Below the pieces are notes generated by a model that did no database searches, was not told the origin of the DNA, and saw only the letters and a program-made list of their open reading frames with translations. The translations under genes and the position numbers were made by a program. From Protoeuglena noctilucae (Eukaryota): a stretch of DNA of 64,000 bases. The stretch spans positions 1,178,001 through 1,242,000 of the forward strand of contig OY253672.1 of the NCBI GenBank assembly GCA_958009085.1, given 5' to 3'. Of this stretch, positions 25,771 to 61,100 are shown in pieces. Numbering within the stretch: the stretch's first letter is position 1; every line of letters begins with the position of its first letter.

Positions 25771-25970
25771 NNNNNNNNNNNNNNNNNNNNNNNNNNNNNN
25801 NNNNNNNNNNNNNNNNNNNNNNNNNNNNNNNNNNNNNNNNNNNNNNNNNNNNNNNNNNNNNNNNNNNNNNNNNNNNNNNNNNNNNNNNNNNNNNNNNNNN
25901 NNNNNNNNNNNNNNNNNNNNNNNNNNNNNNNNNNNNNNNNNNNNNNNNNNNNNNNNNNNNNNNNNNNNNN
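25771..25970. other. Assembly gap (200 N)
   Basis: Run of N. It is flanked on the right by a low-complexity coding tract (PEAEAEPEA on the minus strand). Confidence 0.99.
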
Positions 25971-35300: not shown

Positions 35301-36527
35301 CATGCAGGGGGTGGGAGCCACGCCATGTCATGTCATGCGCATGTGCCCTCACCCTGTAACACCTGCAACCATGTGTGCCCTCATCCTTTCGCACCTGCAC
35401 CCATGTACCCTCACCCATGTGCCATCACCCATGTGCCCTCACCCTCGCCCCCAGGAGTTCAAGGACAGCATCGCGTCTGTGGCCCAGCAGCTGGACCAGA
35501 TGGCACCGAATCTGAAGGCCATGGAGCAATACGAGGCAGTCAAGCGGCAGGAGAGGGAGCACAATGAGCTGCTGGATAAGGCCAAGGAAGAGGCGCGGGT
35601 GAGAGAGGGCGGGGTGGGAATGGGCACGAGTCCATGCAAGGTTCAGGTCTTACATCTGCTCTTGACAAAACTTGGAAAGGAATGTTCGGATCGAGATGAT
35701 GGGGCGACGTCGCTAAAGTGCTTGGCGTGAATCACGCACCCGTCGATCACCCTCCCCACCCCGCAGGAGGCCACGGCGGAGTTCGAGCGCGTGCACCAGC
35801 AGCGCCTGGCGCTCTTCACGGACGCCTTCGACCACATCTCCCGGTCCATCGACGCCATCTACAAGGAGCTGACGCGGTCGGACGTGCACCCCTTGGGCGG
35901 CATGGCCTACCTGTCCCTGGAGAGCCCAGATGACCCCTTCAACGGGGGCATCAAGTACACCGCCATGCCGCCGTCCAAGCGTTTCCGGGAGATGGAGCAG
36001 CTCAGCGGTGGCGAGAAGACCGTGGCGGCCCTGGCTCTCCTCTTCGCGGTGCACAGCCACCGGCCCAGTCCCTTCTTCATCCTTGACGAGATCGACGCCG
36101 CGCTGGACGCATCCAACATCGCACGCGTGGCGCAGTACATCCGGCAGCGCTCCCGCGGCCAGTGGGACGGGTGCTTCCAGGTGCGGGGCGGTGGGCGGCT
36201 GTTGAGAGACAAGCCAGTAGTCTTTCTCGGTTCTCGACTCGCGGCCAGCCACGCTGTCCGCTATGTCTCTGCGATGATCTTGCAAGGCGGCACGCCAGCA
36301 GCGTCCCCTCGTCTCTGCTGCCACCCTCGCATGTGCCCGTTCCTGCCTCAACATCACGGTGCGACCCACCGTTCCCTGCCCGCCCCGCTCTTACCCAGGC
36401 CATCGTCATCTCTCTCAAGGACGTGTTCTTCGACAAGGCCGACGCCCTCCTCGGCGTCACCAAGAACCTGGAACAGCAGTCCAGCCGAGTGCTCACGTTC
36501 GACCTCTCGGCCTTCCTGGACGCATGA
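29330..36527 (+). CDS. SMC1: Structural maintenance of chromosomes protein 1 (cohesin), multi-exon
   Basis: [11 protein letters not shown]...[47 protein letters not shown], hinge region PPMTFIPL and [20 protein letters not shown]-terminal [59 protein letters not shown]. Confidence 0.96.
33942..34016 (+). repeat. Exact 34-nt direct repeat (41-nt period) spanning an SMC1 exon/intron junction
   Basis: AGGGCAGCGTACAAGACACAGGTGGGTGCATGGC occurs at 33942-33975 and 33983-34016. Confidence 0.9.
35338..35450 (+). repeat. Degenerate intronic minisatellite (~15-nt unit CCATGTGCCCTCAC)
   Basis: Several imperfect copies of CCATGTGCCCTCACC within an SMC1 intron. Confidence 0.6.
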
Positions 36528-36910
36528 GGGGGTTGGGACAGGCACGAGGGGCAGCGAGACTGCGGGACTGCGACGGGCGAGGCGGCGAGGTCGTTCGCAG
36601 GTCGACTGTGCGTCGCGGTCCGGGCAGGCCTCTACCACCAGCCGCTGAATGCAATTTGCGCTGGTTGGGAAGCACGTTTACCTTGGTGTCTGCATGTAGC
36701 AGGATAGCACATAGCCACGTCATGCGCAACGCAACCATGCTGCATGAGAGCAGACGCATCAGCCAGTTTCAAATACGCCCCTGTAGCTTTTGTGCTATGA
36801 CGTTTCTCAGAAACGCGGTGTCGAGTACAGCAACTACAACTACAGGACACGGTCATTGAGCTCACAGCCGATGATTTTTTCGTCAAATAGCCAGACAGTA
36901 TCAGGAGCCC

Positions 36911-39897
36911 TCAGAAAGACAGCAGATCGAGGGTCTTGCGCAGCAGCGGCCCCCCGTCGTTGTTGACGTGCGGCACGATGCTGGCGGGCCGCAGCCACTG
37001 CACAAAGTCCCTCAGCTCGGGACAGCTCGAGTGCTCAGAATAAGGCAAGTCGTACACCACAATCGACGCCTCGGCGGATGCCGCGCCGCCACCCTTCCTA
37101 CGCTGCACTGCGAGAGGGCGACGAAGGGCGGATGGTGACTGTGTGTCACGGGGCGTCACAGAATCTGGGGGTATGCGAAAAGTGACAGCTACAGCCAACA
37201 GCTGCAGCCACGCAGATAGGACCCATTAGTAGCAAAGCTCACCCATGGGCTGGCCGGTGCCCCGGCCCTTGGCCCCCACGGCCCACCCCGTGGGTCGGAA
37301 GGCAATGCAGGTGTTGAAGCGCCCCCGGCACCGCGACATGAGCTTGGCCAGCGCCCGCATCGTGACCCCGCTCAGCGGCATCACGTGCAGGTTCGTCACT
37401 CGCTCGTCTGTCGTCAGCAGCGCCAGGTCTTCGGGTGACAGCCCGATGCATCGCAGCACGCGCAGCTTGGCCTCCGTCACAAACACCTTCCGCTTCAGCC
37501 GCCGCGCGACCTCCAGGTACACCCGCTCCTTGCCCAGCCTGCGAGCGAGTGACGCGACGGTGGGAAAGATGCCAACAAGCGATGTGAACGACAATGACAC
37601 CGGGTAAGGCGAGAAGCAACAGAGGAGAGCGTGGAGATGGTAGCCAATGGCACTTACGTGTAGGAACCGAAGATGAAGAGGGTGCCGGCTCTCTCTCCCG
37701 CGTTGAATGCCTCGGCGCGGACGGCGTCCTCCACAAAGTCGACCACGTCCGACTGGGGCGGGAAGACGCAGTGGAGCTGGCAGAAGGTGGTGTCGAGGAT
37801 GAGCTTGCACCGGCCACGCACGCGCTGCAGCTCCGGCCACGTCGTCATCCTGGCGGGCAGGGGCAGGGGCGGCGGTGGTGGGCGGCATGACGGCTAGCTG
37901 GCAAGGAGAAACACGTGGTGACGCGAACAGGCTGCTATCTCTGGAGGAAAGAGGTAAAGCTGGGTTAGGTCGCTGAACGGGATCTGGCCGAGGACCACAA
38001 GTGCGCACGAAGGGCCGCGCAGGTCGTTGTTCGTCTCACTCCCATCGCCATCAGCCTCACTTGTCGTGGAATCGGAAGTCGCCGGTGTGCAGCACGGGCG
38101 CGCACCCCTCCTTCTCCAGCAGCACCATGGCGGCGCCCGGGCAGTGGTTGGCGTCCAGCAGCGTCAGCTGTGCCCCGTCCACCGTGTGTGGTTGGTTTAA
38201 TGGCAGAGCGCACAGGGCCTTGTCGGGGACCCCCAGGACCGTCCGCGCCAGCTCCGCGGTGATGTGCGTGCAGTAGATGGTGCCGCGATCGAACGCGCTC
38301 GTCAAGCCCTGGTAGTGGTCCTGGGAAGCGAGATGAGGGTGCGGGGTCTGAGGGTGTCTAAGGTGGTATGAGCACGGACAGATAGATGGGGTCGATAGCA
38401 ATGTGGATACTACAATACACCAACACCGATTCGTAGACTTGGCGCCGAGGCTGGCAGGCCATATCACTGCGGCGTCTGCTGTGTCTGTGCCCTCACCGTA
38501 TGGAAGTGAGTCAGGATCCACCGTCGGCACCCGATGTGTGCAAACTTGCGCTTGAAACCGTCCACCATGAAGGCCGTCCGTGCGTCCATGGCCACCAGGA
38601 CGTAGTTGGGGGGGCGTTCATTGCCCCCAGGCCTCTGAGAAGGTCGGTCAACACAGGCCACGTTGTACTAGGCTCCTGGTACAAGGGTGGTCACAACATC
38701 ACAGGACCCGTCGCGAAAATACGCGATTGCCACATATCACATTGCAATCGCCAACTCTCCCTTGCCTTGGCAGCTGCGGCCCGAGGGCGCCTGTCCGTCC
38801 CCTCCTGCACCCCATACCCGCCCTTCCCAGCCCCCCCGTGGTCCTGGCACCCTGGCCGCGGGGTCTCTGCCGCTGTCACGCCCGCGACGCCACCCTTAGG
38901 CGCCGCCCCCGACTCGGATCGGAAGAAATTCGTGATCTGCGGGGTGCCTGGCACCGTCGCCTGGGCCGGCGCAGGCGACACATCTGCAGGGGCTGGCACC
39001 AGCCACGAGGGGGCGCGCAAGACAGGGGCCAGGACGCGGTTGCCAGGGAGGGTGGCCGCGTGCCTGAGGATGGCGCGCCTGTGCTTCTGCACGCACAGTG
39101 ATGAGAACGGGCTGTGGCGGTCTGGACGAGCGTTGCTACCCAACAATGTGGCGCGCATCCTTCGGGCGATCCATGCTTTGCGGCGCCGTGCGGCCCTCGC
39201 CTTGCTGCGCACGCCGCAGGCCTTGAGGTCGGCCTCGGTCAGGAAGCGCACGCTGTCCAAATCAACCTCCTCCCGGGCCAGGCAGTCGGCGTACCGCTCC
39301 ATCTCAAACGTGTGCAGCCAGAGCTTGAGGCACCCCAAGGGATCCGACGATAGTAACTGAGGGCGCAGAATGGGCACTTGCATCGACATGCCCGCACCCC
39401 TCGCAAGCACCGACAACAGTGCGCGGGCTGGATCGCCCAAACGGTGCCCGCCGCTATCAACGCACCTTGGCGAGGGTCGCCTTCGCCGCCCTGCCGTCCA
39501 TGGCATTACTGGCCGCGTTGGCAGGCGTCGGGACCAGGCTAAGCGCCTGCGCCAGCTCCGCCACCGACGAGCCGTCCGAAAAGTCGTCCGCGAACACCGC
39601 CAGGCCGCTGGCCGACAACATCTGGTCAATCATTGGGATCCATGGGTGGTCGCGCGCTAGCTCATCGGCGCTCCGGCCCCGCAGCGCGTAGAATTCGGCC
39701 CTGCCTTCGCGGGTCAGGATGCAGCGCATCGCCCGGGCCTGCAGGAACGACTCGCCGCGGCGTCGCGACAACCATGAGGTGACAGCATTACACAGGTAGA
39801 CGCTTTCACCGCCAAAACTCGCCTTCTCGTCGAGGAGGGGGCCCGCGGCACCCGCCGCGTCCTGCTGCATCGCCAGCGGCCCCGCTGCACGCGGCAT
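36911..39897 (-). CDS. SNM1: DNA cross-link repair protein SNM1/PSO2-like (SAM domain plus metallo-beta-lactamase/beta-CASP)
   Basis: SAM: LKLWLHTFEMERYADCLAREEVDLDSVRFLTEADLKACGV. MBL motifs WILTHFHT|DHYQGL, LLDANHCPGAAMVLL, HTGDFRF, LILDTTFC, GSYT|LGKERV, AFRPTGW and PYSEHSSCPELRDFVQWLRP. The first exon (39897-~39464) splices in phase 0 to the SAM exon. Confidence 0.9.
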
Positions 39898-39905
39898 CGG
39901 GCCTC

Positions 39906-40254
39906 TCAGACCATGATTCCCATGCCTTTCAATCCCTCCTTGGCTCGGGCGATGTCGGCAGTCAGTTCATGCTGCGGGGAGGGAGGGCAGGGATGCCGCG
40001 CCCTGCACGCTGCGGCGCCAAGCCGCCGGCCTTTGCTTCCCCCGCACGCCCACCATGGCATCCGGGTAGTCCCGCATGGACACGACGCCGACGATCAGCT
40101 GAAAGAGCATGTAAACCCCAAGGCACACGAGGCAGTAGACGGGGAAGAGCTTGGCGTGGAAGCGCGACTTGGAGCTGAGCGGGAGGCTCAGCGAGTAGGC
40201 CCAGATGGCTCCAACTACCGCCGCGACGTTGAGCCACCAGAGCAAGAGCCGCAT
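39906..40254 (-). CDS. DPM3: Dolichol-phosphate mannosyltransferase subunit 3 (88 aa, 2 exons: 40254-40054 and 39971-39906)
   Basis: MRLLLWWLNVAAVVGAIWAYSL...LFPVYCLVCLGVYMLFQLIVGVVSMRDYPDAM|HELTADIARAKEGLKGMGIMV followed by TGA. Two TM helices plus the C-terminal D.P.A..EL..DI..AK..L...G pattern and length typical of DPM3. Confidence 0.88.
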
Positions 40255-40712
40255 CCGTGCTCGTGCGGTCCGGCAGCGGGCTAAGTGTGCGCGACAGGGG
40301 ATGGCGCTGCGCCGGAGTTGTCTGCGCGCAACTAACGAGCTTCCTATGCACATGCAATGGCCAGGTCAAGGCAGCTAAGGGCTCGCTGGTGCTGTCAGAG
40401 CTGCGATGCGTGTCCTGACATCGCAGAGGATCGCGACTTCACCTCCTCATGTCGGAACGGGCATCTACACGCAGCATTCCAACGCAATTCTCGGCCTCTC
40501 GCTGGCGTCCAGACGCAGCAGCTTCCTCCCGCGGCCAAGCGCTCGTTCAAACCCCAAGCTCCGCGTCTCGCCCGCGCCGGGCGCCTCGTCGGGCAGCGTC
40601 AGTACCGCCGCGCGGCTTTTCTCGTCAGCATATCGCCTTTATTGCAAGAGGGCTTTCCGAGCCAGCAAATATCCCGCTTCGGGAGCGCTGCCGTGGTTGT
40701 CACCCCGAAGCC

Positions 40713-41901
40713 ATGACGGTCCCGGACGTCGACGTGGACCAGGTATGGTGCCTACCTTCCGGCGACGATAACAAGTCATCGATACACGCTCTGTCTCGCA
40801 GCTGTCCATGCCCAGCGGATGCCCCACGCGCTCCTCCGCAGCTCCACCAGGAGGTGGCGGAGGCAAAGGCGACGTTCGATAAATGGGTCAATGCGAACGC
40901 ATCCGCGGTGGCGGCGTTGAAAGCCAAGGTGCGTAACGGGTGCAATCAGCCCGAGCGTCGGCGGTCTTCGCAATGCATGGGGCCGACACGCACGATCGAC
41001 TCCGCACGTCCTGCCCTGCAGCATCAGAACACGGCGCGGGATGCGCGGGCGACGATCCAGGCGCTGGAGTCGAGGAAGGTGCAGTTGCAAGTGGAGGTGG
41101 ACCGGCTCAAGTTGCGGCTGCAGACGGAAAAGGCGAGGCAGCTGCAGTTTCTCTTTCCACCCTCCACGCCCACGCCCCTGCGCCGCGAGACCCACCCGCC
41201 GCGATGCCGCAGGCGGAGGAGCAAAAGCTCGCCCACGAGCTGGACATCCTCCGGGCGGAGGAGGCGGAGATCCCCCGGCGGGTGCAGGAGCTGCAGCGCC
41301 TCATCGTGCAAGAGGAGGAGAGGTGAGCGGGCCACATGGTTATCAAGGCACATCTCTGTGAAAAAGCACGCTTGGTATGACGACATGAGGTTCCTTTGTA
41401 CCCCACTCACGCAGGGCCGCGCACGAGAGCTCCGCAGTGGCTCTCGCCTCGGCAGAGGTTCGGAGGCATATGGAGCACCTGCAGTCCCAGCTGCGCGTGC
41501 TGGAGGAGACACTTGGGCTTCAGATCCAGCAGGTGCCGGACAAGGGACTCCTCCGCTTCGTGTTCGTGCATCTGGACCCTTGCGACCCGCCCCGGCCCTT
41601 CTCCTTCACGCTCCAGCTCACGGGGCAGTCGACCTACGTCGTCCACGACTGTGCACCCCCGGTAAGCCGCGGGCCCGCGGCGGGCACGCGCTGCGGCAGC
41701 GGATGCCGACGCAGCTGCGTTTCTACCGCGGGCGTGGTGGTATGGGCACCGGGCGCATCACATAACACCCCACCGCCTGCCCCGTCGCAGGTGGCCGACC
41801 TGCCGGCGCTGCTGGGGGCCCTCAGCCACAACCCCAACCACTTCTTCTCCTTCGTGCGTGGCATGCGCAAGGCATTCAAGGCGGGGCTGCTCCACGGCTA
41901 G
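40713..41901 (+). CDS. SPC25: Kinetochore Ndc80-complex subunit Spc25, multi-exon
   Basis: N-terminal coiled coil, then LGLQIQQVPDKGLLRFVFVHLDPCDPPRPFSFTL...YVVHDCAPP|VADLPALLGALS...FFSFVRGMRKAFK, matching the Spc25 RWD domain. Confidence 0.9.
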
Positions 41902-42017
41902 CAGGGCGCACCCATTGAAGGTCTGGCCCGGCTGCCCGCATAGATGGGCCGCGGACGGAGTGGACAGGGACATGCAGGGCCCCTGTGGGTATGTCAAGGC
42001 ACCGAGACATGCCAGTC

Positions 42018-44042: not shown

Positions 44043-44706
44043 GGACTTCAAAAATATATGGGCGATACGAAATCGGGCGTGAGACCCTCGCGAGGCCCCA
44101 AAGTGGTTGGATTTTTTCCCACAGAAAATCCACACGACCCGGTGCGATGGGGAGGCCCTGGGCGATCTCTCGTCCAGCACGGACACCGATGACGTTAGAG
44201 GGCCCGAATGCGGTCGATTTAGGACGTTGTTAGTCGCGAATCTCGGTTTGCCAGCAGCGTGTGTGGGTTCTTCCCCATGCACACCCTGTCTTCAAAACGC
44301 GCCGACTCTGGCCCGGCGCACCGCATACCGCGCAACTTTACATGGTTCCGAATCAAATCCCCGCCGCGAGATTGGCGGATTCGCCCCAAACTCGACGAGC
44401 CGGGCCCGAGACAGGGCCCGAGGCAGTTACACGCGTCCGCGCCCCGATTTGAAGGTTTCGAGCCCTCGCCACAGGACTTGTGAGTAGCACATTCGACTTA
44501 GAACAGGGACGAGGAAGGCGCAGGGTCCTTGGACGCCGCGATTGCCGTGGGGCACGCGGTCTTCGCGGTCCAGGCAGGAGCCGGAGGGGCCCCCTCCGCG
44601 CGTCGGTCCGTGCATCGGTGAGGAGGCGCGCAGAGCAAGGGCAAGGGGCGCTCGAGCGCGCTGCAAAGCGAGCTGTTGTTGCATCCCGCCTGGATCTCTC
44701 GCGCAG

Positions 44707-46181
44707 GATGGGGTGACCTGCCCGGGGAGCTGCATCGCGAGATCCTGCGGCTGGTGCCGCTGCGCGACGCGACGGCAGCGCGGGGCGTGTCGCCGGAGAT
44801 GCGCGACGAGGTGGACGAGCTGTGGAGGGCGTGGCGCATCCGGGCCATCAAAAAGGACGATCAGCGTTTTTTGGGATGGAACGTCTTCGGTCCGCTGGCG
44901 GTGTACGCGCATGATGGGTCGCACTCGCATCACCTGGCGAGCCTGGGGCTCTGGAGGCTGGCCCTGCTGATGGCGGAGGGGCCGGACGTCAACGGCATCT
45001 CGTGGCGTCCCGTCTCCGGAGTGAGCAGTGGAGAGCAGTCGCCGCTGATGCTGGCAGTGCAGGCGCTGCGGCATGCGGGGCGCGGGGCAGACGGGGAGGA
45101 GGAGTGGGCGTACGTGCTGGGGGTCGAGGAGGTGGCGCGGATGGTGCGGGTGGCGGTGGCGATGGGGGCAGATGTTAACCGGCGGCTGCACCGAGCATGG
45201 CCGCTGATGATGTTCTGCGTGGAGCGGGGGTGCTTGGAGGGGGTTAAAGCGTGCCTGGCAGCGGGGGCGGAAGTGGACGCGCTCGACAGCCGGGGCATGA
45301 CCGCGCTGGTGCGCGCCGCGCGTATGGGCGACGAGGCGATGGTGGAGGTGCTGCTGGAGGCGGGGGCGTCGGCCAAGGTCGGGGACGATGGCCAGGACGA
45401 CATGCTGGCGATGGTGTGCGACGTTGACCCGACTCCAGGCATCCTGAGGCGCCTGGTGGAGGCGGGGGCGGATGTGATTGGCCGAGGCATGCATGGAGAG
45501 CCCGCGAATATTGTTGCCAGGAACGGCGGTGACGTGGCCCTCATGGAGACCCTGGTGGAGCTGGGGGCGGACATCAGGTCCCCTGGGGCAGCGGGGTTCT
45601 CAGCGATGGATGAGGCGGCGACCGGGGAGCTGGTGCGGTTCTTGGCGGCACATGGGGCGAGCTTCCAGCACGACCAAAGCTTCGAGTCCTCCCTGCACTG
45701 GGCTTGCAGAAGGGAGCGGGTTGACGCCGCCTGCGCTATGATTGAGCTGGGCGCGGACGTCCACGCAAGAGACGGGGACGGCAGGACGCCCCTTCACAAC
45801 GCAGTGCAGTTTTGTATTTGCGACAAGCGGGGGGCCGTGAAGCTCACAGGGCGGCTGCTGGAGGCGGGGGTGGACGCCAAGGCCGCTGATGAGGAGGGCG
45901 TGACTCCCCTGCACGTCGTCACGTATCCGGAATGCGTGGACGTGCTGGTGGCCGCCGGGGCGGACTTGGAGGCGCGGAACAGGGAGGGTTTCACGCCAAT
46001 CTACACCATCGCCACTGAATGTCCTCTTGATTCATTCGACGGCATAAACTTCACCTCCAAAGTCGTGCTGCGGATGGCGGACCTTGGTGCAGACCTGGTC
46101 AACACGGGAGGGCGGCGAGGCTTCGTGGCGCGCAAAGTGGAGGAGCTGCGGGCCCAGCGCAGCCGCGAACAGGCCGGCTGA
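44707..46181 (+). CDS. F-box-like plus ankyrin-repeat protein; one ~1.47-kb uninterrupted frame, start codon unresolved
   Basis: F-box pattern WGDLPGELHREILRLVPLRDATAARGVSPEMR. Multiple ankyrin repeats (GMTALVRAARMGDEAMVEVLLEAGA, GRTPLHNA, GVTPLH, GFTPIY). First in-frame ATG is at 44799. Confidence 0.82.
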
Positions 46182-51896: not shown

Positions 51897-52130
51897 GGTC
51901 GCGGCGGGGCGCAGCGTTGAGAGCGTCGGGAGTCCGCGCATGCACCTAGCTGGGTTCAACCGTCACCAAAGCAAGTCCGCCGCAACAGTTCGCCGCTAAA
52001 GATTCAAGGAAATCAATGCCATTGAGAGAAAGTGTGCCCATAGCACACATGAGATGCATATATGACACCCGCAAATGGGTGTAACCCTGCCAGAGGTGAC
52101 GCAGTGAAGACCGATGCTCAAATGCATCGC

Positions 52131-55100
52131 TTAGAGTATGGCCCCCCACCCCACATACATGCGCATCAGGTTGTCTGGGTTGGTGGCCTCTGTCAGCAGC
52201 TGCTGCACCTGCCCCTCCACGCCCCGCGTCTCCCCGTCCCCAAAATCTGCGCACAACGCACGAAGCACGATCCTGCGCTGCCTCGTGCTCTGGCCCCTCA
52301 CCGCAGCAGCAATCAAAGCTACAACGGCACACTCTCGTCCCGCACTGCCATCTCTCACCTTGCCCCTCAAGCTTCTGCCGCACTCGCAGGATTGCACGTG
52401 CCGCGTCCGCAGTCCCCTGCAGTGCCTCCGGCGCCACAGCAGCGGCCTCCTCGGCGTCCGCAGCGTCCGGCTGCTCCTCCCTCTGCTGCCACCGCCGGGC
52501 GCGCGACGGCGACAATGCCCACTTGTACAGGGGGTCGTGCACAAACACCTCGATGACGGTCAGCATGGGGTCCCGGTTGGCGCGCAGCACCCCCACCGTG
52601 GCCTCCATGCACCGCCGGAGGGGCCCCTCGACGCCCTGCGGCCCCATGCCGTCCACGATGTCCCTGGTCATGCGGAAAGGCACTCGCTCCGGGGTTGGGA
52701 GCAACCGCCCCTGCTCGAATGCAATGCCCAGGTCGATGTGCACCACCTCCGCCGTCGACATGTCGACGAGGATGTTGGACGAGTGCCGGTCTCCCAGACC
52801 GAGCAGGTACCCCGCCACGCTGGCGGCTGCCGTGGACCTCGTGAAGGTCAGCCGGGCCACGTACCAGTCCCGCGGCGCTGGGAACCTCTCCAGGAAGAAG
52901 TGCCTCAGGACGGGCGGAAAGCGAGACGTCACGTCCGCCCACGCGGCGGGCAAGTGACCCAAACCCTTCTGCTGCTCCAGCACCTGAGCATCCCTGAGCT
53001 TCTGCACGCCCTCAATGTACGCGAGGCCGCCGGGCGGGGCGTAGCGCGCGTGGGCGCCCCCCGAGCGGCCGACGAGCCAGTCGGTGAGGACGAGGGTGTT
53101 GTTGACCCACTCCACCAGCCCGCACCGGGGCGTGAGGGGCACGACCCGGTAGGTGCGCACGGAGAGCGCGCGCTGCCGGCATCGGCCGTCCGCCGCAAGC
53201 AGGGCGTTGATCAGCCCGAACATCTGCTGCATGACGGCGTCTTGCCGGAGGTCGTCGCCGCCGCTCTTGACGAGCTGCGCCCGCCGGGTTCCGTCACTGC
53301 AGCTGACCTTGACGCGCTTTGGGCTGTTGACGCCCCCCACAAACTGCACCTCTCTGTCGAACCCAGTGAAGATCGGCAGCGACTCGGGCGCGTACGTGCC
53401 GGAAGGGTCCACGGGGACCGTGGCTGTCGGGACCGGCACCATGTCGAGTCCCCGGGTGCGACGGACGACGTCGGCAGGGACGTTCGGGAAGCTCTTCAGG
53501 TTCTCTCGGAGGGGCAAAGACCCGATCGCGAGGTAGGCTTCGATGAGCTGCTCCATCTGGCCTGCCACACGCGCTGACCGGTCCTGCGAGGGGGGGGTCA
53601 TGGGCGTCCCGCATGTCTGGCGACCAGTGGCGACAAACACCGCACGCGCCTTCTTGTTGGCTTCTGGAAAGCGGCACGTTCGTCGCATGTTCGGCATCGT
53701 CATCGCTGCCAGCCACGAGCTGGCGCCTGCCCTGTGCCGCAGCTGCTGCACTGCGCACGCTCACCCCCCGCGCCACCAACCGACTCAGGAGCGCCTTGGC
53801 AGCTGCGACCTTCTCCTGGTCGACACGGAACTCCAGACCACCGGCGTTCGACCCCCCCGGCACCCTGGCACCCGCCACGCGGCTCCCATTGGCCAGGGCG
53901 AAGAGGTGGTGCAGCATGTGGTGCGGATGCTGCACCACCACGCGCATCACCAGCGCCTGGACCACGCCCTGGAAGCCAGAGTCCTCGCCAGAGGCGCTGA
54001 GGACTGCCCCGCCCACGCGGCTGGCGATCTGGTAGGCGAGCGGGAGGAACTTGTACGACGCCACCTCAGGAAGCACCGAAGCGAGGTCGGCGTTCACGTC
54101 CGCGTCGGCGCTGGCCGCCAGCCACAGCCGCACGAGCTTGAAGAGCGCGGGGAGGTCGTGCGCGTCCCCGGCCACCAGCGCGTCCTTGCTGGCGCGCAGG
54201 GCAGAGCGGCGGTACTGCAGCAGGGAGGCCTCCATGTGTCGGCGAGCGTCGCGCTCTGCCGCCGTCAGCATGGACAGCTCCCGGGCCTTCCGGGACAGCT
54301 CGGACAGAGCGCGGTCCTGGGCCGCCTTTTCCCGCACCGGCTGCGCCTGCAGGGCCCTGCAGGAAGGACAGGAGAGGGCACCGCACCCATGGGCGTCATC
54401 GCACGCAATGTGCGTTTCCCTGCACACCAGAAGGCCTTGACGCAAGCAACAAGTTCGCTATCAACCACCGATCGCAGCACTCACCGAATCTTGTCCGTCA
54501 CGTGCTCCAGCTCCTCCTCCTGGCGCCTCAGCACGTCCTGCTTGCGTCGGTACTCGGGAGCCTGCATAGCAGCCGCGTGCTGCGTGTGCAGGCGGTCCGC
54601 GAACTGGGCCACGCGCCAGTGCGCCTCGCAGAGAGCCCCCGGCGAGCCCTTCAGGTGATCCAACGCCCCGTGCAGGTAGTTGTCGAGGATCGATGAAGGG
54701 GAGTCCATGCTATGCTCCGCCATCCACCACCCAGCCACGCTCATGGCCTCCCCCAGCCGCTGCCCGTCGCACGACCCGTCCCGCGCCATGTCTGCCACGA
54801 GACCGCGCACCACCCGCACCGCCTGAGCGCGACGGCCTCGGTCCCATGTGAGTTCCACCTCCTCCAGGCGCCACACCGCGTCCGCCCGGCGCAGCGCCGG
54901 GTCCAGCGTGGGCCCCTCGGGGCCCTCCAGCAGCGACCTCACGCTCGCCAGGTACGACTGCCCCAGCGCGTGCTCCCCCGCCACCCGGGCGTGCCTCGCC
55001 GCGCGCCGCCACAGCTCCGCCAGGGCGTTGAGCTGCCGCGTCGCGCTCAGCGCCGCGCCCTGCACCGCCAGCAGCGGCTCCATGAGCCAGAACCGCCCGT

Positions 55101-58100
55101 CGCGCCCCGCAGCTTCCTCGACGATGTGCCACCGTGCCGTCGCCACGGACGCATCCCCCGGCCACCGGCCCACTGCCTCCGACCCCACGCACTGCTCAGA
55201 GCCCTCATAGCTCAGCAACAGCCCGCCCCAGGACCCCGGCAGCCCAGCAAAGGTCTCAGGATGCATCTCCTCTGTGCCGGTCTCAGCCATCCGCGCCAGC
55301 CCCGGGGCGAATCGCAGCGGCCATGCGCTGGCAAGGATCCCCGCCATCTGCAGCTGCACCAGGAGCGCGTTCAGGGAGGCTACGGCTTCAGGGCGGTCGA
55401 CCTCCAGCGCATCGGCAGTGACGCGCGTCGCGAGGGCGAGCGAAGCGCCCAGCTGCTCGGCGTCACCCCCTGCGAGCGCAGAGACGGCCCCGAGGACCGC
55501 GCCGGAGAACCCGGCCTCCAGGAGTAGCGGCGCGTCGTCCGGGGCGGCCGGAGGGGCGCCCCACTGCCCCATGCGCCATGCCGCGTCGGCGACGTGCCCG
55601 GGGCTAACCCCGCCGCGCAGCGTCGCCGCCGCCAGCGCCCCGCAGCCCATCCGCTGCAGGGCTGCAGCCGCGTGCAAGCCGCTTCCCGCCTCTCCGCTCC
55701 CGGTGCGTCCGCCCACGTCCGAGAGCACGAGCGCCGCTGGCCAGTCGCCCTCATGCACTGCAAGCTCTCGCTGTGACGTGCCGTCCAGCCCCGCCTCCAC
55801 TCCGTAAACCCCATCCGGTTCCCCCGTGGCCCGGTGCGCCCTCAGCAGCAGCGCCTCCACCACCGCCCTCTCCTCTGCCCTATGATTGCTCGCCTCCTCC
55901 ACCTCCCACTGCTCCAAATACAGCAACGCCGTCATGGGCGCGTGCAGGGCCAGCGCCGCCTCCGCCATCGTCACGTAGCTCACGTCCAGCCAATACACGT
56001 GGTCCCAGAACACCGGGCTCATCGCCAGCGACCATCGGCCGGTGAGTAGCAGGTGGGCAGCGCCGCCCTCCCTCTGCAGATCCTGGGCGTCCGAGGGGAG
56101 GGGCCGGTTCGGTCCCGACGCAGAAATGGCCGCCGCGGGGCGCTTGCGGCCCTGGGAGACCTGCCGGGCTGCCTTATCAAAGACCCACTTGCCGCATGAC
56201 AGCCGGCGCCCCACCGCCTGCGCATGGGCCAGCCCGTCCTGCCGCAGGCGCCGCAGATGCTCCGCCCACTCCAGCACCGCGCGCACGGCGTGCCGCCGCG
56301 CCTGCAGGCCCTTGCCAAGCGTCGATGCATCAGCCGCGCCCACGCTCCCGGACGCGCCTTGGAGCACGGGCCTCAGCACGTGCTGCTCCAACCCCGCGGA
56401 TATCGCAGCGCAGAATTCCCCCGTCTCGCAGTCCCACGTGGCGATGTCCGCCAGAGCCGGGCCCCCCAGGTGCCTCGCCAGGTCCGGGCACAGCTTGGCC
56501 GCGGGGGCGCACATGCGCAACGCGTCATCCACAGCGCAGCGGAGGAGCGCGGGCACGACCCGGCACACCCAGGAGTCGAAATCGGATCCGTCGCAGGACC
56601 AGAGGCTGGCCGCCGACAGGGTGCTCGGGTCTGAGGGGGTTGGGGTCCCAGGGTCGCTTGGGCCGTCGTGGAGGTCAGCGTAGTGGCTGACATACCGAGA
56701 CTCGGACGGCGGCAGGGATCGAAGCAAATCAGCCACCCCGTCGATGCTGAAGAGGCCGTGCAGGCACGTGTCAGCTGCCGCCACCACGGCCCCGTCCAGC
56801 GATGCCAGGCGCGCCTGCAGGATGCCCAGGGTGCGGGGCAGCCACGGTCGCGGCCAGGGCGACGCGTCGCTGCGGGTGCCCTGCCCGCCCGCGTCACCCG
56901 TTGAAACCCCCGCGTCCCAGTCGCTGAGGGTGGGCGCTGCGATGCACTGAGCTGGGACCGGGCCCATGCTCGCCAGCAGCTGCAGCGCGCACTGGTGCAT
57001 GGGGTCGCTCTCGCGATGCTGCGCCAGCTGCAGCAACCGCAGCGGCCACTTCAGCCCGATTTCCTCCGCGGACCTGCCCCGGGCCGCCACCAGCAGCGCG
57101 TCTGCCGCTGCCTTGCGCACCGTCGGCCCCAGCCACGAGGCATTGCGGCAGAGCCACGCCATGTCCTCTGCGCAGGAAGGCTTCGTGGCATCCCGCTCCC
57201 GGCCGTGCACCTCCCGCAGCGGCCTCAGTGCGTCGGCGGCGGGCAGCGCGGGCACCTCAGCCAAACACGCGCGTAGGTCCTGGCGTGCGGCGCAGTGCCG
57301 CGCCAGCAACCCCGCCAGTTCCCGCAGCCGCGACGGCGACGGAGCGTCTTGCCCCGGCGAGCGCGTGGCTGCCTCGGCGATGGCGCAGGCGATGCCGGCC
57401 ACCAGGTCGGCGTAGGTGGCGGCCGTGTCTGGGTCGGCCGGGAGCGTGTCAAGCAGAGACGCCAGCATGCCAGCAGCATCCTCCGCCACCGCGCCGCCGC
57501 CCGCGAGGACGTGGCAGAGGACGCCCACAAACTGCCTTAGCACCGGGGGGGCGTGCAGGAGGGGACCGATGACTTCTGCTGCTGCGGCCAAGGGTGGGAG
57601 CAAGTCCGGGGCCCGGGTGGTGTCCTGTGCGGCCAGGAGCGGCCTGCAGACGGCGAGGACCAGGCGCAGGGCGTTGCGAGGGCCCCGGAACGACTCCACG
57701 GGGTCGTCATTCGTCACTTTCTTCTTGATGTTGGCGACGACGGTGGCGGCGTCTGCGAACGGGACGGCGTCCGCCCCCTCGGGCCTGACCAGCCGCAGGG
57801 CCTCCGCCAACACGTCCACCAGGTGCTTCGCATACATGGCCTGCCTGCTCTCCTCGCTCAGGTGCTCCACCAGGGCTGTCCCGAGGGGTTTCTTGGCGTC
57901 CTCATGCGCCATCACCAGGCTGATCATCACGGGGAAGCTCAGCCGAAGCAGCCCCGCCTCATCCATGTCGAGCAGCTCGCCCATCAAGCGCACGTGTTCC
58001 GTCCGTCCCTGCCGCAGCAGGTGCGGGACGGCGTGGTACGCAAGGGGCTGCAGGGGCCGCGGCGCGTCCGCGAGGGCCCGCGGGCTCAGGAGCAGAGGTG

Positions 58101-61100
58101 CCGCGTCGTCGAGACAGTCGACGGGGAAGGCCGCCACTGCCCACCGATGGAGCAGTGCCGGCAGCAGAGGCTCCAGGTAAGCATAGGGGTCAGCGTACCC
58201 TCGCACCGAGGCGCAGTGGCCCAGCAGGGCGCGGGCGAGGCTCTGCTGGGTGCGGTCGACCACGGCCATCGCCGCGATCTGGAACACGCAGTCGGCCTCG
58301 AAGGCGGGCGCCCACGGGGCGGCCCGAGCCAGGGCGAGCATGGATGTGGGGATTCTGGCCCGGTCTGCCGTCTCCAGATTAGCAGAGGCCTCTCCGTACG
58401 AACAGAGGGCCGTCCAGCTCTGCGCATCCAACATCTGTACCGGGAGCTGTTGGAAGTGGCGAAAGACGACGTTGGTGTCCGGGAAGGTCGCCAGCAGCGG
58501 CGCCATGTCGCACGCGGCGACGCGGACCGCCTGAGATGGGTCATTGGCCAGTCGGGACAGCACCATGCCGATGTCGTCCGTCAAGACCCTCAGGTCCTCG
58601 CGCTGCGACGCCTTCCAGGCCGCGGCCACCACGCGCAACAGCGCCCTCGCGGCGTCCGCAGCCGCGACGCGCACGGCGGGGCGGAGCGGGAGATCCACCA
58701 CGGAGTCGATCATCGTGGCAAGGCGGGCCGCGGGGCTCACGCCCGCCCCCGCGCCCCCGTGGCTCTGGTTGGAGGCCTGGGACTGGGACTGCGGCTGCGA
58801 TACCTGGGTGTGCACCGAGTGGGACTGCCCGGGGGTGTCCATGGAGGGCGGGACGGGCCCTGCCGCCAGGGCGGTCGCGATGCGCATCAAACGCAGCATT
58901 CGGTCGCTCCCCACGAACCCGTGTCGCGAGTTGCGGCCGCCCTCCACGACCTCGCAGAGCTCGGAGACGCACGCATCCACCACGCCAGCCGGTAAGTGCC
59001 CCCGGTCGCCTTCCAACCCTGCCCCGTGGTCCCCGGCCCCTGCCTCCAGGTGTGAGAGGGCAACTAACGCACCGAGGCACGCGTCCTCCGGCACGAACCG
59101 CAGCGCGACAGCGACGCATTCGGGCAGTCCCCCAGCCGCGTGTCGCATCCGGCGCAGGGCCTCCCAAGCCCGAAGTGGGTCGACGGGGCCCATCGCCGCC
59201 ACCGCGTCCGCCAGCCACGCGCACGCAGCCGCCGCCGCCTCTGCCCTGACAACGCTCTCTGGTGCCGCCTTCGGGGCCTGCGTTGGCCTGGGCGCCTGCG
59301 TCATGAGCGTGCCACCGAAGTCGCCCAGGTCCTCGTCTGCATCGCTCGCATCACCGGCGTCCCCCTGGCTCAGGGCCTCTCCCTCCGCCGCCACGGACTG
59401 CAGGGCCTCGCGGCAGCGGTGCAGCTGCGACGCAAAAAGACTCTCCGCCGAGCCCAGCGCCTGACTCAGCAGCTCAAGCAGGGGGTCGCAGTCGAGGTGT
59501 GCAACTGCCACCGACGCCACTGCCCCGAGTGCGCGCAGGAGCCCAGGGTGCGGAGGCCGTGCGTCAGACACCAACACAGGCATTCCATCGACGCACGCTC
59601 GGAGCTGCCTCTCCAAAGCATCCCGCAGGTCGGCGGCACCCTGGGCGGCGCTGTGTCGATCGTGCACCGCCTCAAGGCACATGGCCATCACCCTCGCCAT
59701 GGCGAAAGCCGCCAGCACACTGCCCGTGCTATCGGCGGTCGCCTGATCGGCCCAGGGTCCTTTGGAGCCCAGGATCTGAGACGGCCGACAGGAAGAGCAA
59801 CCAGTGGGCGTGCCAAAGTAACACACCGAAGTCGTGCCAGTGTGCAAGTCGAGCATGGCAAGCTCCAAGGCGTGGAAGTGGGGTGCAAACACAAGTGCTA
59901 CTTCTCTGGCCGGCAACCGCATGGCTCGATCCTCACCACTTTCGAGGACAGGCTGGCGTGTGTGACTGTCGCTGTGCCTGCGTTGCTGTCCCTGCTCTGT
60001 GCGGGCAAGTCCTTATCGAAGTGCCCCCGCTCGAGCCGCACATGGATCGGCAGCAACGTCGCCTCCTCGTCGCTGTCTGAAGGTCTGCTCGATGCGTACC
60101 ACGCATCCTGGGGGCAAGCAGCCAGTCGATGTGAGTCACAAGGCATGACAAAAGTCCAGCCAGCCCACGCCCCCAGAAGCAACTCGTCTCGCACCCCCCA
60201 TGTGCAGGGCCGCTCGATGTCAACACACCCACCTGGTACGCGAGCGTGGCGTCTGGTGTGTCGATCCCCGTCGCCGCCGCCACCACACATGCGACCTCGG
60301 CAAACGTGACGACGTCACCGCCGCACCGGCCGCACGCACGCAGGGCCCAGCTCAGAGCACGCTGCCGGAGCTTGACGGTGACACTCGACATGGGTACTGC
60401 CCGCAGTGCCTCCGCCATGGCCCGCACGTGGCCCCATATGATGGTCTTGGGGCCGTGCAGGTGGCCGTCCGCCTGGCTGCGTCAGACAACGCGATGCAGG
60501 GTGTGAGTGGGTGTGAATCGGCGTCACAGCCCAGTCTCCGGCATGCCAGGTGCGCATGTCTGTATGACGGTGGTGGTCGTCACGAGCCCATCTGCGGGTA
60601 GCTCACCTTTCGATCAAAGCGCAGATCTTCACTGCGGCCGTCCCTGCCGCCGTGCGGCTGGCGGCGGCGAGCTTGGACAGGATGAAGGCCGTGGCAGCGA
60701 AGCCCTCGGTTAGGACAGCGGGGTTCAGGCTGGCGGAGCGGTGCTCGAGGCATTCGGTGACCAAACCCACTGCGGGAACAGGGCAATCATACGGCTGTGG
60801 GATGTCGCTGTTGAGGGGAGGAAAGCGCATAGGAGGAGCCCTGCGCGCACTCCTGCACGCATCAAGGGCACACTCACGGCATTCCTGGGCGGGGCCCGGG
60901 TCGCCATGCTCGCTCCCGTGCTGCAGCGAGGCTGCGGCGAGCCGGAAGGACCAGATGGCCGCGCTGGAGGCGAGCACGTCGAGTTGCTGGAGCAGGGCCC
61001 GGACGGAGGCGTGGAGCTCAGCGAGGCAGTCGGGGTCGCAGAACAGGCCCTCCTGCAGCATCGTGCACACCAGCGGAGCCCAAGCCTGGGAGGAGCGTCG

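What the first reader, a model, noticed from the sequence alone, without database searches (positions are those of the whole stretch)
36911..40254. Candidate bicistronic transcript: DPM3 stops 8 nt before the SNM1 start codon
Seen: on the minus strand the DPM3 TGA (39908-39906) is followed by GAGGCCCG and then the ATG (39897) of the 146-codon first exon of SNM1, which splices in frame to the SAM exon. There is no room for a DPM3 3' UTR/poly(A) signal or an intergenic SNM1 promoter. The DPM3 AUG has a weak context (CGG-ATG-C). Known: polycistronic nuclear mRNAs with a short upstream ORF have been reported in green algae. Inference: one mRNA encodes an ER glycosylation subunit and a DNA cross-link repair nuclease, two unrelated proteins. 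DPM3 contains several internal AUGs, so termination-reinitiation fits at least as well as leaky scanning. I do not know of this pairing being described.
Basis: partly seen in the sequence, partly recalled or inferred. Interest (0 to 1): 0.82.

Follow-up and report, generated by a model that had tools for sequence, protein, structure and literature searches.

The report
Candidate DPM3–SNM1 bicistronic algal gene pair
In a GC-rich green-lineage alga, a tiny ER glycosylation gene (DPM3) ends 8 bases before a DNA-repair nuclease gene (SNM1) begins; the same tight pairing is kept in one relative, so this is probably one more two-protein messenger RNA of a kind already known in green algae.

Summary
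The layout is real. On the minus strand, DPM3 (88 codons, Pfam-confirmed) stops at 39908-39906. The spacer is GAGGCCCG, and ATG 39897 opens a 635-codon SAM+SNM1/DCLRE1 ORF.

One detail is wrong.

**For a bicistron:**
- In two runs of one study, DPM3-spliced contigs run 53-55 nt past the DPM3 stop, across the SNM1 ATG.
- SNM1 contigs reach back to 39874, overlapping those contigs by 22-24 nt.
- One relative species (metagenome contigs, 75% GC) keeps DPM3, a 56-nt spacer and then SNM1. Its SNM1 N-terminus is homologous and colinear from Met1.

**Against, or still open:**
- No single RNA record spans both ORFs.
- The window's DPM3 is AUG-rich (7 AUGs before ORF2 against 2.9 expected), unlike the AUG-depleted curated green-algal bicistrons.

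**Prior art:** DPM3 is already a curated ORF1 in Auxenochlorella, paired with a thioredoxin/PUB protein. An SNM1-family gene is already an ORF2 in Chlamydomonas and Auxenochlorella. I did not find this particular pairing described.

**Verdict:** probably a conserved bicistronic unit (about 0.6), a new member of a known kind, of moderate interest.

The parts
40330..40482 (.). Short divergent intergenic region (at most 153 bp) between the DPM3 unit (minus strand) and an Spc25 kinetochore gene (plus strand); presumed shared promoter region
   Evidence: The farthest RNA contig of the DPM3 unit ends at 40329. The plus-strand gene's contig starts at 40483. Spc25 Pfam 35.4 bits against a cut-off of 22.3. 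The promoter role is inferred.
40255..40329 (-). 5' UTR, at least 75 nt, with no AUG
   Evidence: X1 contig record 3 reaches 40329. The first ATG of the spliced model is at mRNA position 76.
39906..40254 (-). ORF1: DPM3, 88 codons. Exon 1 40254-40054, 82-nt GT-AG intron 40053-39972, exon 2 39971-39909, TGA 39908-39906
   Evidence: Pfam PF08285 E 9e-10, 39.1 bits. Intron joint seen in 3 of 4 RNA runs. 44 of 90 aligned columns identical to the relative's DPM3, with the intron at the same place.
39898..39905 (-). 8-nt inter-ORF spacer, GAGGCCCG
   Evidence: Read directly. Covered by DPM3-spliced contigs of X1 and X2.
39823..39897 (-). ORF2 (SNM1) coding exon 1: 25 codons from ATG 39897, context GGCCCG-ATG-CC
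   Evidence: GC3 0.88. In the alignment it starts at the same column as the relative's Met1.
39739..39822 (-).
   Evidence: Joint 39736|39821 in X1 and X2 with 4 nt of ambiguity. Read as GCGAGT...CTGCAG. The 28 residues it would encode have no counterpart in the relative. Composition is non-coding-like.
39466..39738 (-). SNM1 coding exon 2: 91 codons. Lineage-specific N-terminal region with no Pfam family
   Evidence: GC3 0.87. tblastn to L002-L004 35% identity, E 4e-14. No other relative among 1.84 billion representatives.
38766..39356 (-). SNM1 exons 3-4 (39356-39201 and 39086-38766), holding the SAM domain and a low-complexity linker; 114-nt GC-AG intron 39200-39087 between them
   Evidence: Pfam SAM_1 25 bits against a cut-off of 23. 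Joints 39356|39466 and 39086|39201 in 3 of 4 runs.
36911..38634 (-). SNM1 exons 5-9: metallo-beta-lactamase / beta-CASP nuclease core. Exons 38634-38497, 38320-38061, 37849-37658, 37538-37243 and 37107-36914, then stop 36913-36911
   Evidence: Pfam DRMBL E 9.5e-10 and 7.8e-13. HFHTDH at residue 318 of the 635-aa product. All four joints between these exons seen in RNA, in 3 or 4 of the 4 runs.
36762..36910 (-). 3' UTR, about 150 nt
   Evidence: Contigs of all 4 runs end at 36762-36784. No poly(A) letters were seen, so the exact end is not shown.

Best explanation
DPM3 and a SAM-domain SNM1/DCLRE1-type nuclease form one conserved transcription unit in a GC-rich green-lineage alga.

Transcription and processing (inferred as a whole): transcription starts in the region of at most 153 bp shared head-to-head with Spc25. 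Nine introns are removed. The result is an mRNA of about 2.4 kb with these parts:
- a 5' UTR of at least 75 nt;
- ORF1, DPM3, 267 nt;
- an 8-nt spacer;
- ORF2, SNM1, 1,908 nt;
- a 3' UTR of about 150 nt.

Translation (inferred): ribosomes starting at the weak-context DPM3 AUG make DPM3. SNM1 is made at a low rate by ribosomes that reach AUG 39897, or the next in-frame AUG at 39870, after terminating at the DPM3 UGA. Every one of the 7 AUGs between the two start codons either reads the DPM3 frame or opens a 2- or 5-codon ORF. No upstream initiation therefore runs over the SNM1 start. Two strong-context AUGs (39923 and 39914) give 5- and 2-codon ORFs ending at the DPM3 stop. For this species I favour termination-reinitiation, partly after leaky scanning into those mini-ORFs, over pure leaky scanning.

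Shown: the gene models, the splices, RNA running through the stop/start junction, and conservation in one relative. Inferred: that one molecule carries both ORFs, and the translation route.
For: 1. Geometry: 8 nt separate the stop and the start. ATG 39897 is the first AUG after the stop and opens a 635-codon ORF on the RNA-supported spliced model.
2. RNA, DPM3 side: X1 record 3 (397 nt) and X2 record 8 (380 nt) carry the spliced DPM3 intron and continue to 39851 and 39853. That is 55 and 53 nt past the stop, with more than 31 nt on both sides of the junction. These lower ends are derived from the 'side' values 121 and 119 and from the record offsets, not from listed pieces.
3. RNA, SNM1 side: the SNM1 contig reaches 39874 in both X1 and X2. 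No poly(A) or other loose end is listed there. Two bins, 36151-36584, have zero depth in all 4 runs, so genomic DNA is not the source.
4. Depth: contig depths of the DPM3 and SNM1 parts are alike (X1 12.8, 15.3, 21.7; X2 6.6, 5.7, 8.66) while the neighbouring Spc25 gene has 65. This is a weak hint only.
5. The SNM1 start is real. GC3 is 0.87-0.88 in the first two exons. The spliced product aligns colinearly with the relative's intronless protein from Met1. Overall it is 43% identical over residues 25-633 (451 bits; the next best of the 8 proteins compared scores 330).
6. Conservation: L002, L003 and L004 are 98.6-99.4% alike, so they count as one species. They have DPM3 (Pfam E 5e-10), the intron at the same place, a stop, a 56-nt AUG-free spacer, and then a 631-codon SNM1 ORF.
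7. Precedent (supplement rows and sections read):
   - green algae have many curated bicistrons with a small ORF1 (median 291-357 nt) and short spacers (median 40-183 nt);
   - DPM3 is ORF1 of one in Auxenochlorella protothecoides;
   - an SNM1-family gene is ORF2 in Chlamydomonas reinhardtii and in A. protothecoides.
8. Green lineage: every hit that carries an organism name among the 120 listed for the relative's SNM1 is from Viridiplantae.
Against: - No single RNA record spans both ORFs. The DPM3 and SNM1 contigs overlap by only 22-24 nt and both stop there in two runs. Contigs cannot show transcript starts, ends or single molecules.
- All four RNA runs belong to one study and at most three samples.
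- The window's ORF1 plus spacer holds 7 AUGs against 2.9 expected (P of at least 7 = 0.02). Two of them are in strong context just before the stop. Curated green-algal bicistrons are AUG-depleted, and an added strong internal AUG severely diminished ORF2 reporter expression (PMC11892635 sections 8 and 13).
- The SNM1 AUG itself has a weak context (C at -3, C at +4), and 8 nt is short for reacquiring initiator tRNA (general knowledge).
- The divergent Spc25 neighbour is also conserved in the relative. Conserved adjacency may therefore partly reflect general microsynteny.
- DPM3 was not found upstream of SNM1 in the other 77 loci with a weak two-sequence HMM. It was also absent from all 42 hydrophobic upstream ORF pieces taken from 16 other loci and scanned with Pfam.
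Confidence: 0.6

Rival explanations
1. There are two overlapping monocistronic mRNAs. DPM3 transcripts are polyadenylated inside the 5' part of SNM1, for instance in or near the 84-nt intron. SNM1 transcripts start at their own start site inside the DPM3 gene body. A mixed locus, with both monocistronic and bicistronic forms, is a variant of this.
For: - The contigs of both X1 and X2 break in the same 22-24-nt zone (39851/39853 against 39874), and no record spans both ORFs.
- An AUG-rich DPM3 (7 against 2.9 expected) is what one expects if SNM1 translation does not depend on scanning through DPM3.
- A 3' UTR of the length seen for SNM1 (about 150 nt) would end DPM3 near 39755, inside the 84-nt intron.
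- Gallaher et al. report many 'incompletely polycistronic' loci (passage read).
Against: - No poly(A) or other loose end is listed at or after the DPM3 stop.
- DPM3 contig depth is not higher than SNM1 depth (weak evidence).
- The same overlap would have to be kept in the relative, where the spacer is 56 nt.
- An SNM1 5' UTR starting inside DPM3 would still carry the strong AUGs at 39923 and 39914, unless the start site lies within the last 16 nt before ATG 39897.
Confidence: 0.27
2. The sequence from 39897 to the SAM exon is not SNM1 coding sequence. It would instead be the DPM3 3' UTR or an SNM1 5' UTR, with SNM1 starting far downstream.
For: - Long chance ORFs abound in this 66% GC window.
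- This region has no Pfam family.
- Apart from the window's own gene call, it has no relative among 1.84 billion representatives and none in the word-based search.
Against: - GC3 is 0.87-0.88, as in the conserved exons.
- The region is homologous to the relative's protein N-terminus (E 4e-14) and colinear with it from Met1.
- RNA splicing keeps the frame through two introns.
- The only downstream ATG noted in the SAM exon lies inside the SAM domain (read).
Confidence: 0.04
3. A DPM3-SNM1 fusion protein is made by frameshifting or stop-codon readthrough.
For: The SNM1 frame is open for 23 codons upstream of ATG 39897, across DPM3 exon 2.
Against: - SNM1 lies in the +2 frame relative to DPM3, so readthrough cannot join them.
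- I saw no X-XXY-YYZ slippery heptamer in exon 2 (by eye).
- The junction folds no better than shuffled sequence (z -0.73).
- Open frames are expected by chance at this GC content.
- An ER-membrane to nuclease fusion has no precedent that I know of (recalled).
Confidence: 0.01

Closest known systems
Green-algal nuclear bicistronic loci (Gallaher et al. 2021, PMC7896298; Duenas et al. 2025, PMC11892635)
   Same: - A small ORF1 (267 nt here; reported medians 291-357 nt).
- A very short spacer (8 nt here, 56 nt in the relative; reported medians 40-183 nt).
- A larger ORF2 of unrelated function.
- A weak-looking ORF1 AUG context.
- Colinearity conserved in another species.
   Different: - No full-length read shows one molecule.
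- ORF1 is AUG-rich instead of AUG-depleted, with strong-context AUGs next to the stop. The leaky-scanning route shown for those loci therefore fits poorly.
Auxenochlorella protothecoides bicistron UTEX250_A02.03190 (DPM3) / UTEX250_A02.03185 (thioredoxin + PUB domain protein)
   Same: DPM3 is the upstream cistron. There ORF1 is 264 nt and the spacer 45 nt, and the pair is colinear in Prototheca cutis and Coccomyxa (supplement rows).
   Different: - The downstream partner there is a thioredoxin/PUB protein, not SNM1.
- That DPM3 ORF has 0 internal AUGs; this one has 7.
Chlamydomonas reinhardtii bicistron Cre12.g513245 (APC15-like) / Cre12.g513254 (SNM1A/DCLRE1A-like), and A. protothecoides UTEX250_A11.34125 / UTEX250_A11.34120
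   Same: A DRMBL-type SNM1-family DNA-repair nuclease is the downstream cistron behind a small ORF (supplement rows).
   Different: - The upstream partner differs: APC15-like, or unannotated.
- Those nucleases are annotated without a SAM domain, so they may be paralogues. Orthology was not tested here.
Termination-reinitiation on closely spaced ORFs (viral TURBS-type systems; short-uORF reinitiation). Recalled, except the discussion in PMC11892635 section 13
   Same: - The stop and the restart codon lie within a few nucleotides of each other.
- All upstream initiations terminate at, or before, one stop just ahead of the restart AUG.
   Different: - No 18S-complementary element could be tested.
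- There is no unusual RNA structure.
- An 88-codon ORF1 is long for efficient cellular reinitiation.

Membership tests
Green-algal nuclear bicistronic locus | Two conserved, non-overlapping protein-coding ORFs on the same strand | tested here: met
   DPM3 Pfam 39.1 bits. SAM and DRMBL Pfam hits. Spliced model has 88-codon and 635-codon ORFs. Homologues found.
Green-algal nuclear bicistronic locus | One mature mRNA molecule spans both ORFs (full-length reads), with no separate start site or poly(A) site | tested here: inconclusive
   DPM3-spliced contigs cross the stop/start junction in 2 runs, and the SNM1 contig overlaps them by 22-24 nt. No single record spans both ORFs, and contigs cannot show molecule ends.
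Green-algal nuclear bicistronic locus | Short inter-ORF spacer and small ORF1 | tested here: met
   Spacer 8 nt and ORF1 267 nt. Relative: 56 nt and 273 nt. Reported medians are 40-183 nt and 291-357 nt.
Green-algal nuclear bicistronic locus | Weak Kozak-like context at the ORF1 AUG | tested here: inconclusive
   Window: C at -3 and C at +4. This is weak by the general rule of a purine at -3 and G at +4 (recalled). Relative: A at -3. A species-specific consensus was not derived.
Green-algal nuclear bicistronic locus | Depletion of AUG upstream of ORF2 | tested here: not met
   Window: 7 observed against 2.9 expected, P(at least 7) = 0.02. Relative: 1 against 3.0. The published feature was read.
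Green-algal nuclear bicistronic locus | Colinearity conserved in other species | tested here: met
   One relative species, seen as 3 near-identical contigs L002-L004. Not detected at the other 77 loci with the two-sequence HMM. Not detected in any of 42 upstream ORF pieces from 16 loci.
Green-algal nuclear bicistronic locus | Both proteins are made (proteomics, Ribo-seq) | not testable with these tools
   No proteomic or ribosome-profiling data were available.
DPM3 (PF08285) | Profile match above the curated threshold | tested here: met
   Exon 1 alone: 39.1 bits against a cut-off of 25, profile positions 3-69 of 90. Relative: 39.9 bits.
SNM1/PSO2/DCLRE1 beta-CASP metallo-beta-lactamase nucleases | DRMBL domain and the HxHxDH metal-binding motif | tested here: met
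   DRMBL E 9.5e-10 and 7.8e-13 on the last two exons. HFHTDH at residue 318. Homologues are named DNA cross-link repair 1A / SNM1.
SNM1/PSO2/DCLRE1 beta-CASP metallo-beta-lactamase nucleases | Nuclease activity and a role in cross-link repair | not testable with these tools
   Inferred from family membership only.
TURBS-type termination-reinitiation | Upstream element complementary to 18S rRNA plus a defined secondary structure | not tested
   No 18S rRNA of this organism was held. A single TGGGA pentamer lies at 39922-39918; the motif is recalled from memory and is absent from the relative's equivalent stretch (by eye). The junction folds are unremarkable.

The most novel reading that the evidence does not exclude
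The locus is an obligate bicistron in which SNM1 is reached by termination-reinitiation rather than leaky scanning. Restart would follow either full DPM3 translation or the 5- and 2-codon mini-ORFs opened by the strong AUGs at 39923 and 39914. That would make it a natural counter-example to the leaky-scanning rule established for green-algal bicistrons.

Taken together with the APC15/SNM1 and unknown-ORF/SNM1 loci of other green algae, it would also suggest a wider pattern. Placing an SNM1-family nuclease as a downstream cistron behind whichever small ORF is at hand may be a recurrent way to keep this nuclease scarce. DPM3 would then be a recurrent 'donor' ORF1 that swaps partners between lineages.
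Probability: 0.2. Interest if true: 0.62.

Novelty: new member of a known kind. Interest (0 to 1): 0.42.

Why it matters
If one mRNA really encodes both proteins, this adds a conserved example to the green-algal polycistron catalogue, seen in two species. It would come from a marine lineage outside the species named in the two studies read here.

It would also show that both DPM3 (as ORF1) and an SNM1-family nuclease (as ORF2) recur in bicistrons with different partners. That bears on how such pairs arise and are exchanged.

Its AUG-rich ORF1 and 8-nt spacer make it a good natural test case for reinitiation against leaky scanning.

For annotation it matters directly. Gene callers will miss DPM3, truncate SNM1 or retain the 84-nt GC-AG intron. 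The only database protein for this region starts at Met10 and reads through that intron.

Tried and rejected
- **Whole genome:** none is held for this window. Paralogues, 18S rRNA and a Kozak consensus could therefore not be examined.
- **N-terminal SNM1 region, relatives:** the word-based search among longer proteins scored none of 2,992 candidates. The HMMER scan of 1.84 billion representatives found only the window's own gene call, P0001.
- **DPM3 exon 1, relatives:** the search found only the window's own P0002, so no broad DPM3 profile could be built.
- **ESM Atlas on the 91-aa exon:** it returned only unnamed bacterial clusters at low recognition. No lead.
- **The genome search on locus handles:** the records are not held. 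I replaced this with a two-sequence HMM (the model was built with an off-by-one start and is discarded) and with Pfam on upstream ORF pieces.
- **First tblastx of L002-L004 against the window:** swamped by GC-rich low-complexity hits. Repeated with filters.
- **Junction RNA structure:** z -0.73 for the window and -0.44 for the relative. No support for an IRES-like or structured element.
- **Rfam and tRNA scans of the window:** no matches.
- **Introner-element idea:** the nine introns match nothing else in the window.
- **TGTAA as a poly(A) signal inside the 84-nt intron** (TGTAA as the chlorophyte signal is recalled): there are 10 and 9 copies per strand against about 17 expected. None lies near the SNM1 3' end. 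Dropped.
- **Haptophyte origin,** suggested by the GC-AG introns: not supported by the homologue names.
- **Earlier findings of this scan:** none.
- **Runs X5-X12:** No contig spans the 6-8 missing 31-mers (my estimate from the contig ends) between 39851 and 39874; this part without bridging cover counts neither way.
Full report
**1. What is in the sequence**

- Gene layout, minus strand. ATG 40254 opens a two-exon ORF (40254-40054 and 39971-39909), separated by an 82-nt GT-AG intron and ending at TGA 39908-39906. Exon 1 alone matches Pfam DPM3 (PF08285) at 39.1 bits against a cut-off of 25.
- After the 8 nt GAGGCCCG comes ATG 39897.
- The downstream exons carry a SAM domain (25 bits against a cut-off of 23) and two DRMBL matches (E 9.5e-10 and 7.8e-13).
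- The assembled product has 635 residues with HFHTDH at residue 318. Its homologues are named DNA cross-link repair 1A / SNM1.

**2. RNA evidence**

- Source. Four metatranscriptome runs hold the region at 99% identity or more for most contigs. They come from one study and at most three samples, and are kept as Logan contigs.
- They are RNA-derived. All 15 joints listed in the 6.5 kb laid are spliced forms, and two bins (36151-36584) have zero depth in all four runs.
- Nine joints define this unit. One is the DPM3 intron, seen in 3 of 4 runs. Eight are SNM1 introns.
- A new intron. Within the stated 4-nt ambiguity this is a GC-AG intron, 39822-39739, in frame. SNM1 thus begins with a 25-codon exon followed by a 91-codon exon.
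- Donor usage. Three of the nine introns, and 4 of the 15 joints in the stretch, use GC donors.

**3. Does RNA cross the stop/start junction?**

- The DPM3 contigs cross it. X1 record 3 (397 nt) covers 40329-40054. By its offset and the 'side' value of 121 it also covers 39971-39851. X2 record 8 (380 nt) likewise reaches 39853.
- Both contigs have the DPM3 intron removed. They carry more than 31 nt on each side of the junction and run 55 and 53 nt beyond the DPM3 stop into the SNM1 ORF.
- The SNM1 contig (X1 record 2, 687 nt, and its X2 counterpart) reaches up to 39874.
- The two contig sets overlap by 24 nt in X1 and 22 nt in X2, but no single record holds both ORFs. No poly(A) or other loose end is listed there.
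- What this shows. DPM3 mRNAs necessarily contain the SNM1 start codon and at least 15 of its codons. It does not show that they continue to the end of SNM1.
- My guess is that the break lies in a stretch of very high GC, so a coverage dip is a plausible cause. This is not tested.
- Contig depths of the DPM3 and SNM1 parts are similar, and well below the neighbouring gene. The tool warns that depth is a poor measure.

**4. Is ATG 39897 the SNM1 start?**

- ORF length means little in a 66% GC window with long ORFs in every frame.
- The first two exons have GC3 of 0.88 and 0.87, like the conserved exons (0.78-0.92). The corresponding position is 0.68 for the 84-nt intron and 0.51-0.71 across the eight SNM1 introns.
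- The region has no Pfam family. Apart from the window's own gene call, it has no relative among 1.84 billion representatives and none in the word-based search.
- It is nevertheless homologous to the N-terminus encoded by metagenome contigs L002-L004 (tblastn 35% identity, E 4e-14).
- The spliced window product aligns with that protein colinearly from Met1. The 28 residues the 84-nt intron would add have no counterpart.
- A start far downstream is therefore unlikely. Met10 (39870) remains an alternative restart site.

**5. The relative**

- L002, L003 and L004 are 98.6-99.4% identical to each other, so they count as one species. Their GC content is about 75%.
- In L004, DPM3 starts at 1759. 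It scores Pfam E 5e-10, and 44 of 90 aligned columns are identical to the window's DPM3.
- It has a 122-nt GT-AG intron at the same position and stops at 2151-2153. A 56-nt spacer without AUG follows. ATG 2210 then opens an intronless 631-codon SAM-SNM1 ORF.
- The window's SNM1 is 43% identical to it over residues 25-633 (451 bits). The next best of the 8 proteins compared scores 330 bits.
- The divergent Spc25 neighbour is conserved too (Spc25 Pfam). This is three-gene microsynteny, which weakens "adjacency means co-transcription" somewhat. The very short tail-to-head spacing is nevertheless kept in both species.
- Among the other loci recovered with an SNM1 exon, I found no DPM3 upstream. 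The two-sequence HMM found none in 77 loci. Pfam found none in 42 hydrophobic upstream ORF pieces from 16 loci. Both tests have limited power.

**6. Which organism?**

- No genome is held.
- Every hit that carries an organism name among the 120 listed for the relative's SNM1 is from Viridiplantae. They include Coccomyxa, Nannochloris, Chlamydomonas sp., Auxenochlorella, Haematococcus and many land plants, most with the same SAM+DRMBL architecture.
- I therefore accept "green-lineage alga".
- The GC-AG share (4 of 15) is high. A 56% share was reported for the haptophyte E. huxleyi (PMC4028052, passages read). The homologue names give no support for a haptophyte origin.

**7. Translation anatomy**

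- On the spliced model, the 5' UTR (at least 75 nt) has no AUG.
- The DPM3 AUG has C at -3 and C at +4.
- Seven further AUGs precede ATG 39897. Five are in the DPM3 frame, and two open ORFs of 5 and 2 codons out of frame. No upstream initiation overlaps the SNM1 start.
- The last two in-frame AUGs (39923 and 39914) have a purine at -3 and G at +4. They leave only 5 and 2 codons before the DPM3 stop.
- The SNM1 AUG has C at -3 and C at +4.
- Seven AUGs compare with 2.9 expected (P of at least 7 = 0.02). The relative has 1 against 3.0 expected.
- The junction RNA folds no better than shuffled sequence.

**8. What is known**

- Gallaher et al. 2021 (PMC7896298; passages and supplement rows read) report 87 exclusively polycistronic loci in C. 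reinhardtii and 173 in C. zofingiensis. They include Cre12.g513245 (APC15-like) / Cre12.g513254 (SNM1A/DCLRE1A-like).
- Duenas et al. 2025 (PMC11892635; outline, sections 6, 8 and 13, and supplement rows read) curate bicistrons with several typical features:
  - a small ORF1;
  - short spacers;
  - short 5' UTRs;
  - weak ORF1 Kozak context;
  - AUG depletion before ORF2.
- The same study shows leaky scanning experimentally.
- Their A. protothecoides set contains DPM3 as ORF1. It is 264 nt, has no internal AUG and a 45-nt spacer, sits ahead of a thioredoxin/PUB protein, and is colinear in Prototheca cutis and Coccomyxa.
- The set separately contains a DRMBL nuclease as ORF2.
- I found no mention of a DPM3-SNM1 pair in those supplements (term searches only, not read in full). 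Full-text searches for DPM3 with bicistronic, for the full DPM3 name with polycistronic, and for DPM3 with SNM1 found none either. The last returned 0 papers.

**9. Verdict**

- The most likely reading (about 0.6) is a conserved DPM3-SNM1 bicistronic unit, a new member of a known kind.
- Its atypical AUG-rich ORF1 and 8-nt spacer favour reinitiation over leaky scanning in this species.
- The main rival (about 0.27) is a pair of overlapping monocistronic mRNAs, or a mixed locus.
- Full-length RNA reads would decide.

Noticed in passing
window 35500-42000: 4 of 15 RNA-supported introns use GC donors (minus strand 39822, 39200 and 38765; plus strand about 41133), all read as AAG|GCGAG or AAG|GCAAG. 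As far as I recall, that is far above the roughly 1% usual in eukaryotes. A 56% share was reported for E. huxleyi (PMC4028052, passages read).
   Followed up: partly
window 36911-39897 compared with L004:2210-4102: The window's SNM1 has 8 introns, while the relative's orthologue is one uninterrupted ORF. The single DPM3 intron is kept at the same position in both. This points to large intron gain or loss between two species that still share three-gene microsynteny.
   Followed up: partly
window 40483-41898 (+): An Spc25 kinetochore gene (Pfam 35.4 bits) lies head-to-head with DPM3, with at most 153 bp between the outermost RNA contigs. It has five RNA-supported introns and about 3-5 times the contig depth of the DPM3/SNM1 contigs in run X1. 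The arrangement is conserved in the relative (L002 605-814, minus strand).
   Followed up: partly
window 39466-39738 (-) and L004:2270-2569: A region of about 90 residues ahead of the SAM domain is shared only by the window's and the relative's SNM1. Other green-algal SAM-SNM1 proteins have different N-termini; some carry a Cys-rich motif instead (read by eye). It has no Pfam family and its function is unknown.
   Followed up: partly
window 39918-39922 (-): A TGGGA pentamer lies 21-25 nt upstream of ATG 39897. From memory it resembles motif 1 of calicivirus reinitiation elements. It is a single 5-mer, absent from the relative's equivalent stretch, and I give it no weight.
   Followed up: no
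window 25771-25970: A run of 200 N, i.e. an assembly gap.
   Followed up: no
window 35731-36648 (+), 51949-53760 (-), 44622-46178 (+), 6823-8238 (-): Other genes seen in long open frames: an SMC C-terminal part convergent with SNM1, a PI3/PI4-kinase domain (E 1e-53), an ankyrin-repeat protein and a UBA-domain protein. A 1,843-codon open frame at 54484-60012 (-) has no Pfam match.
   Followed up: no
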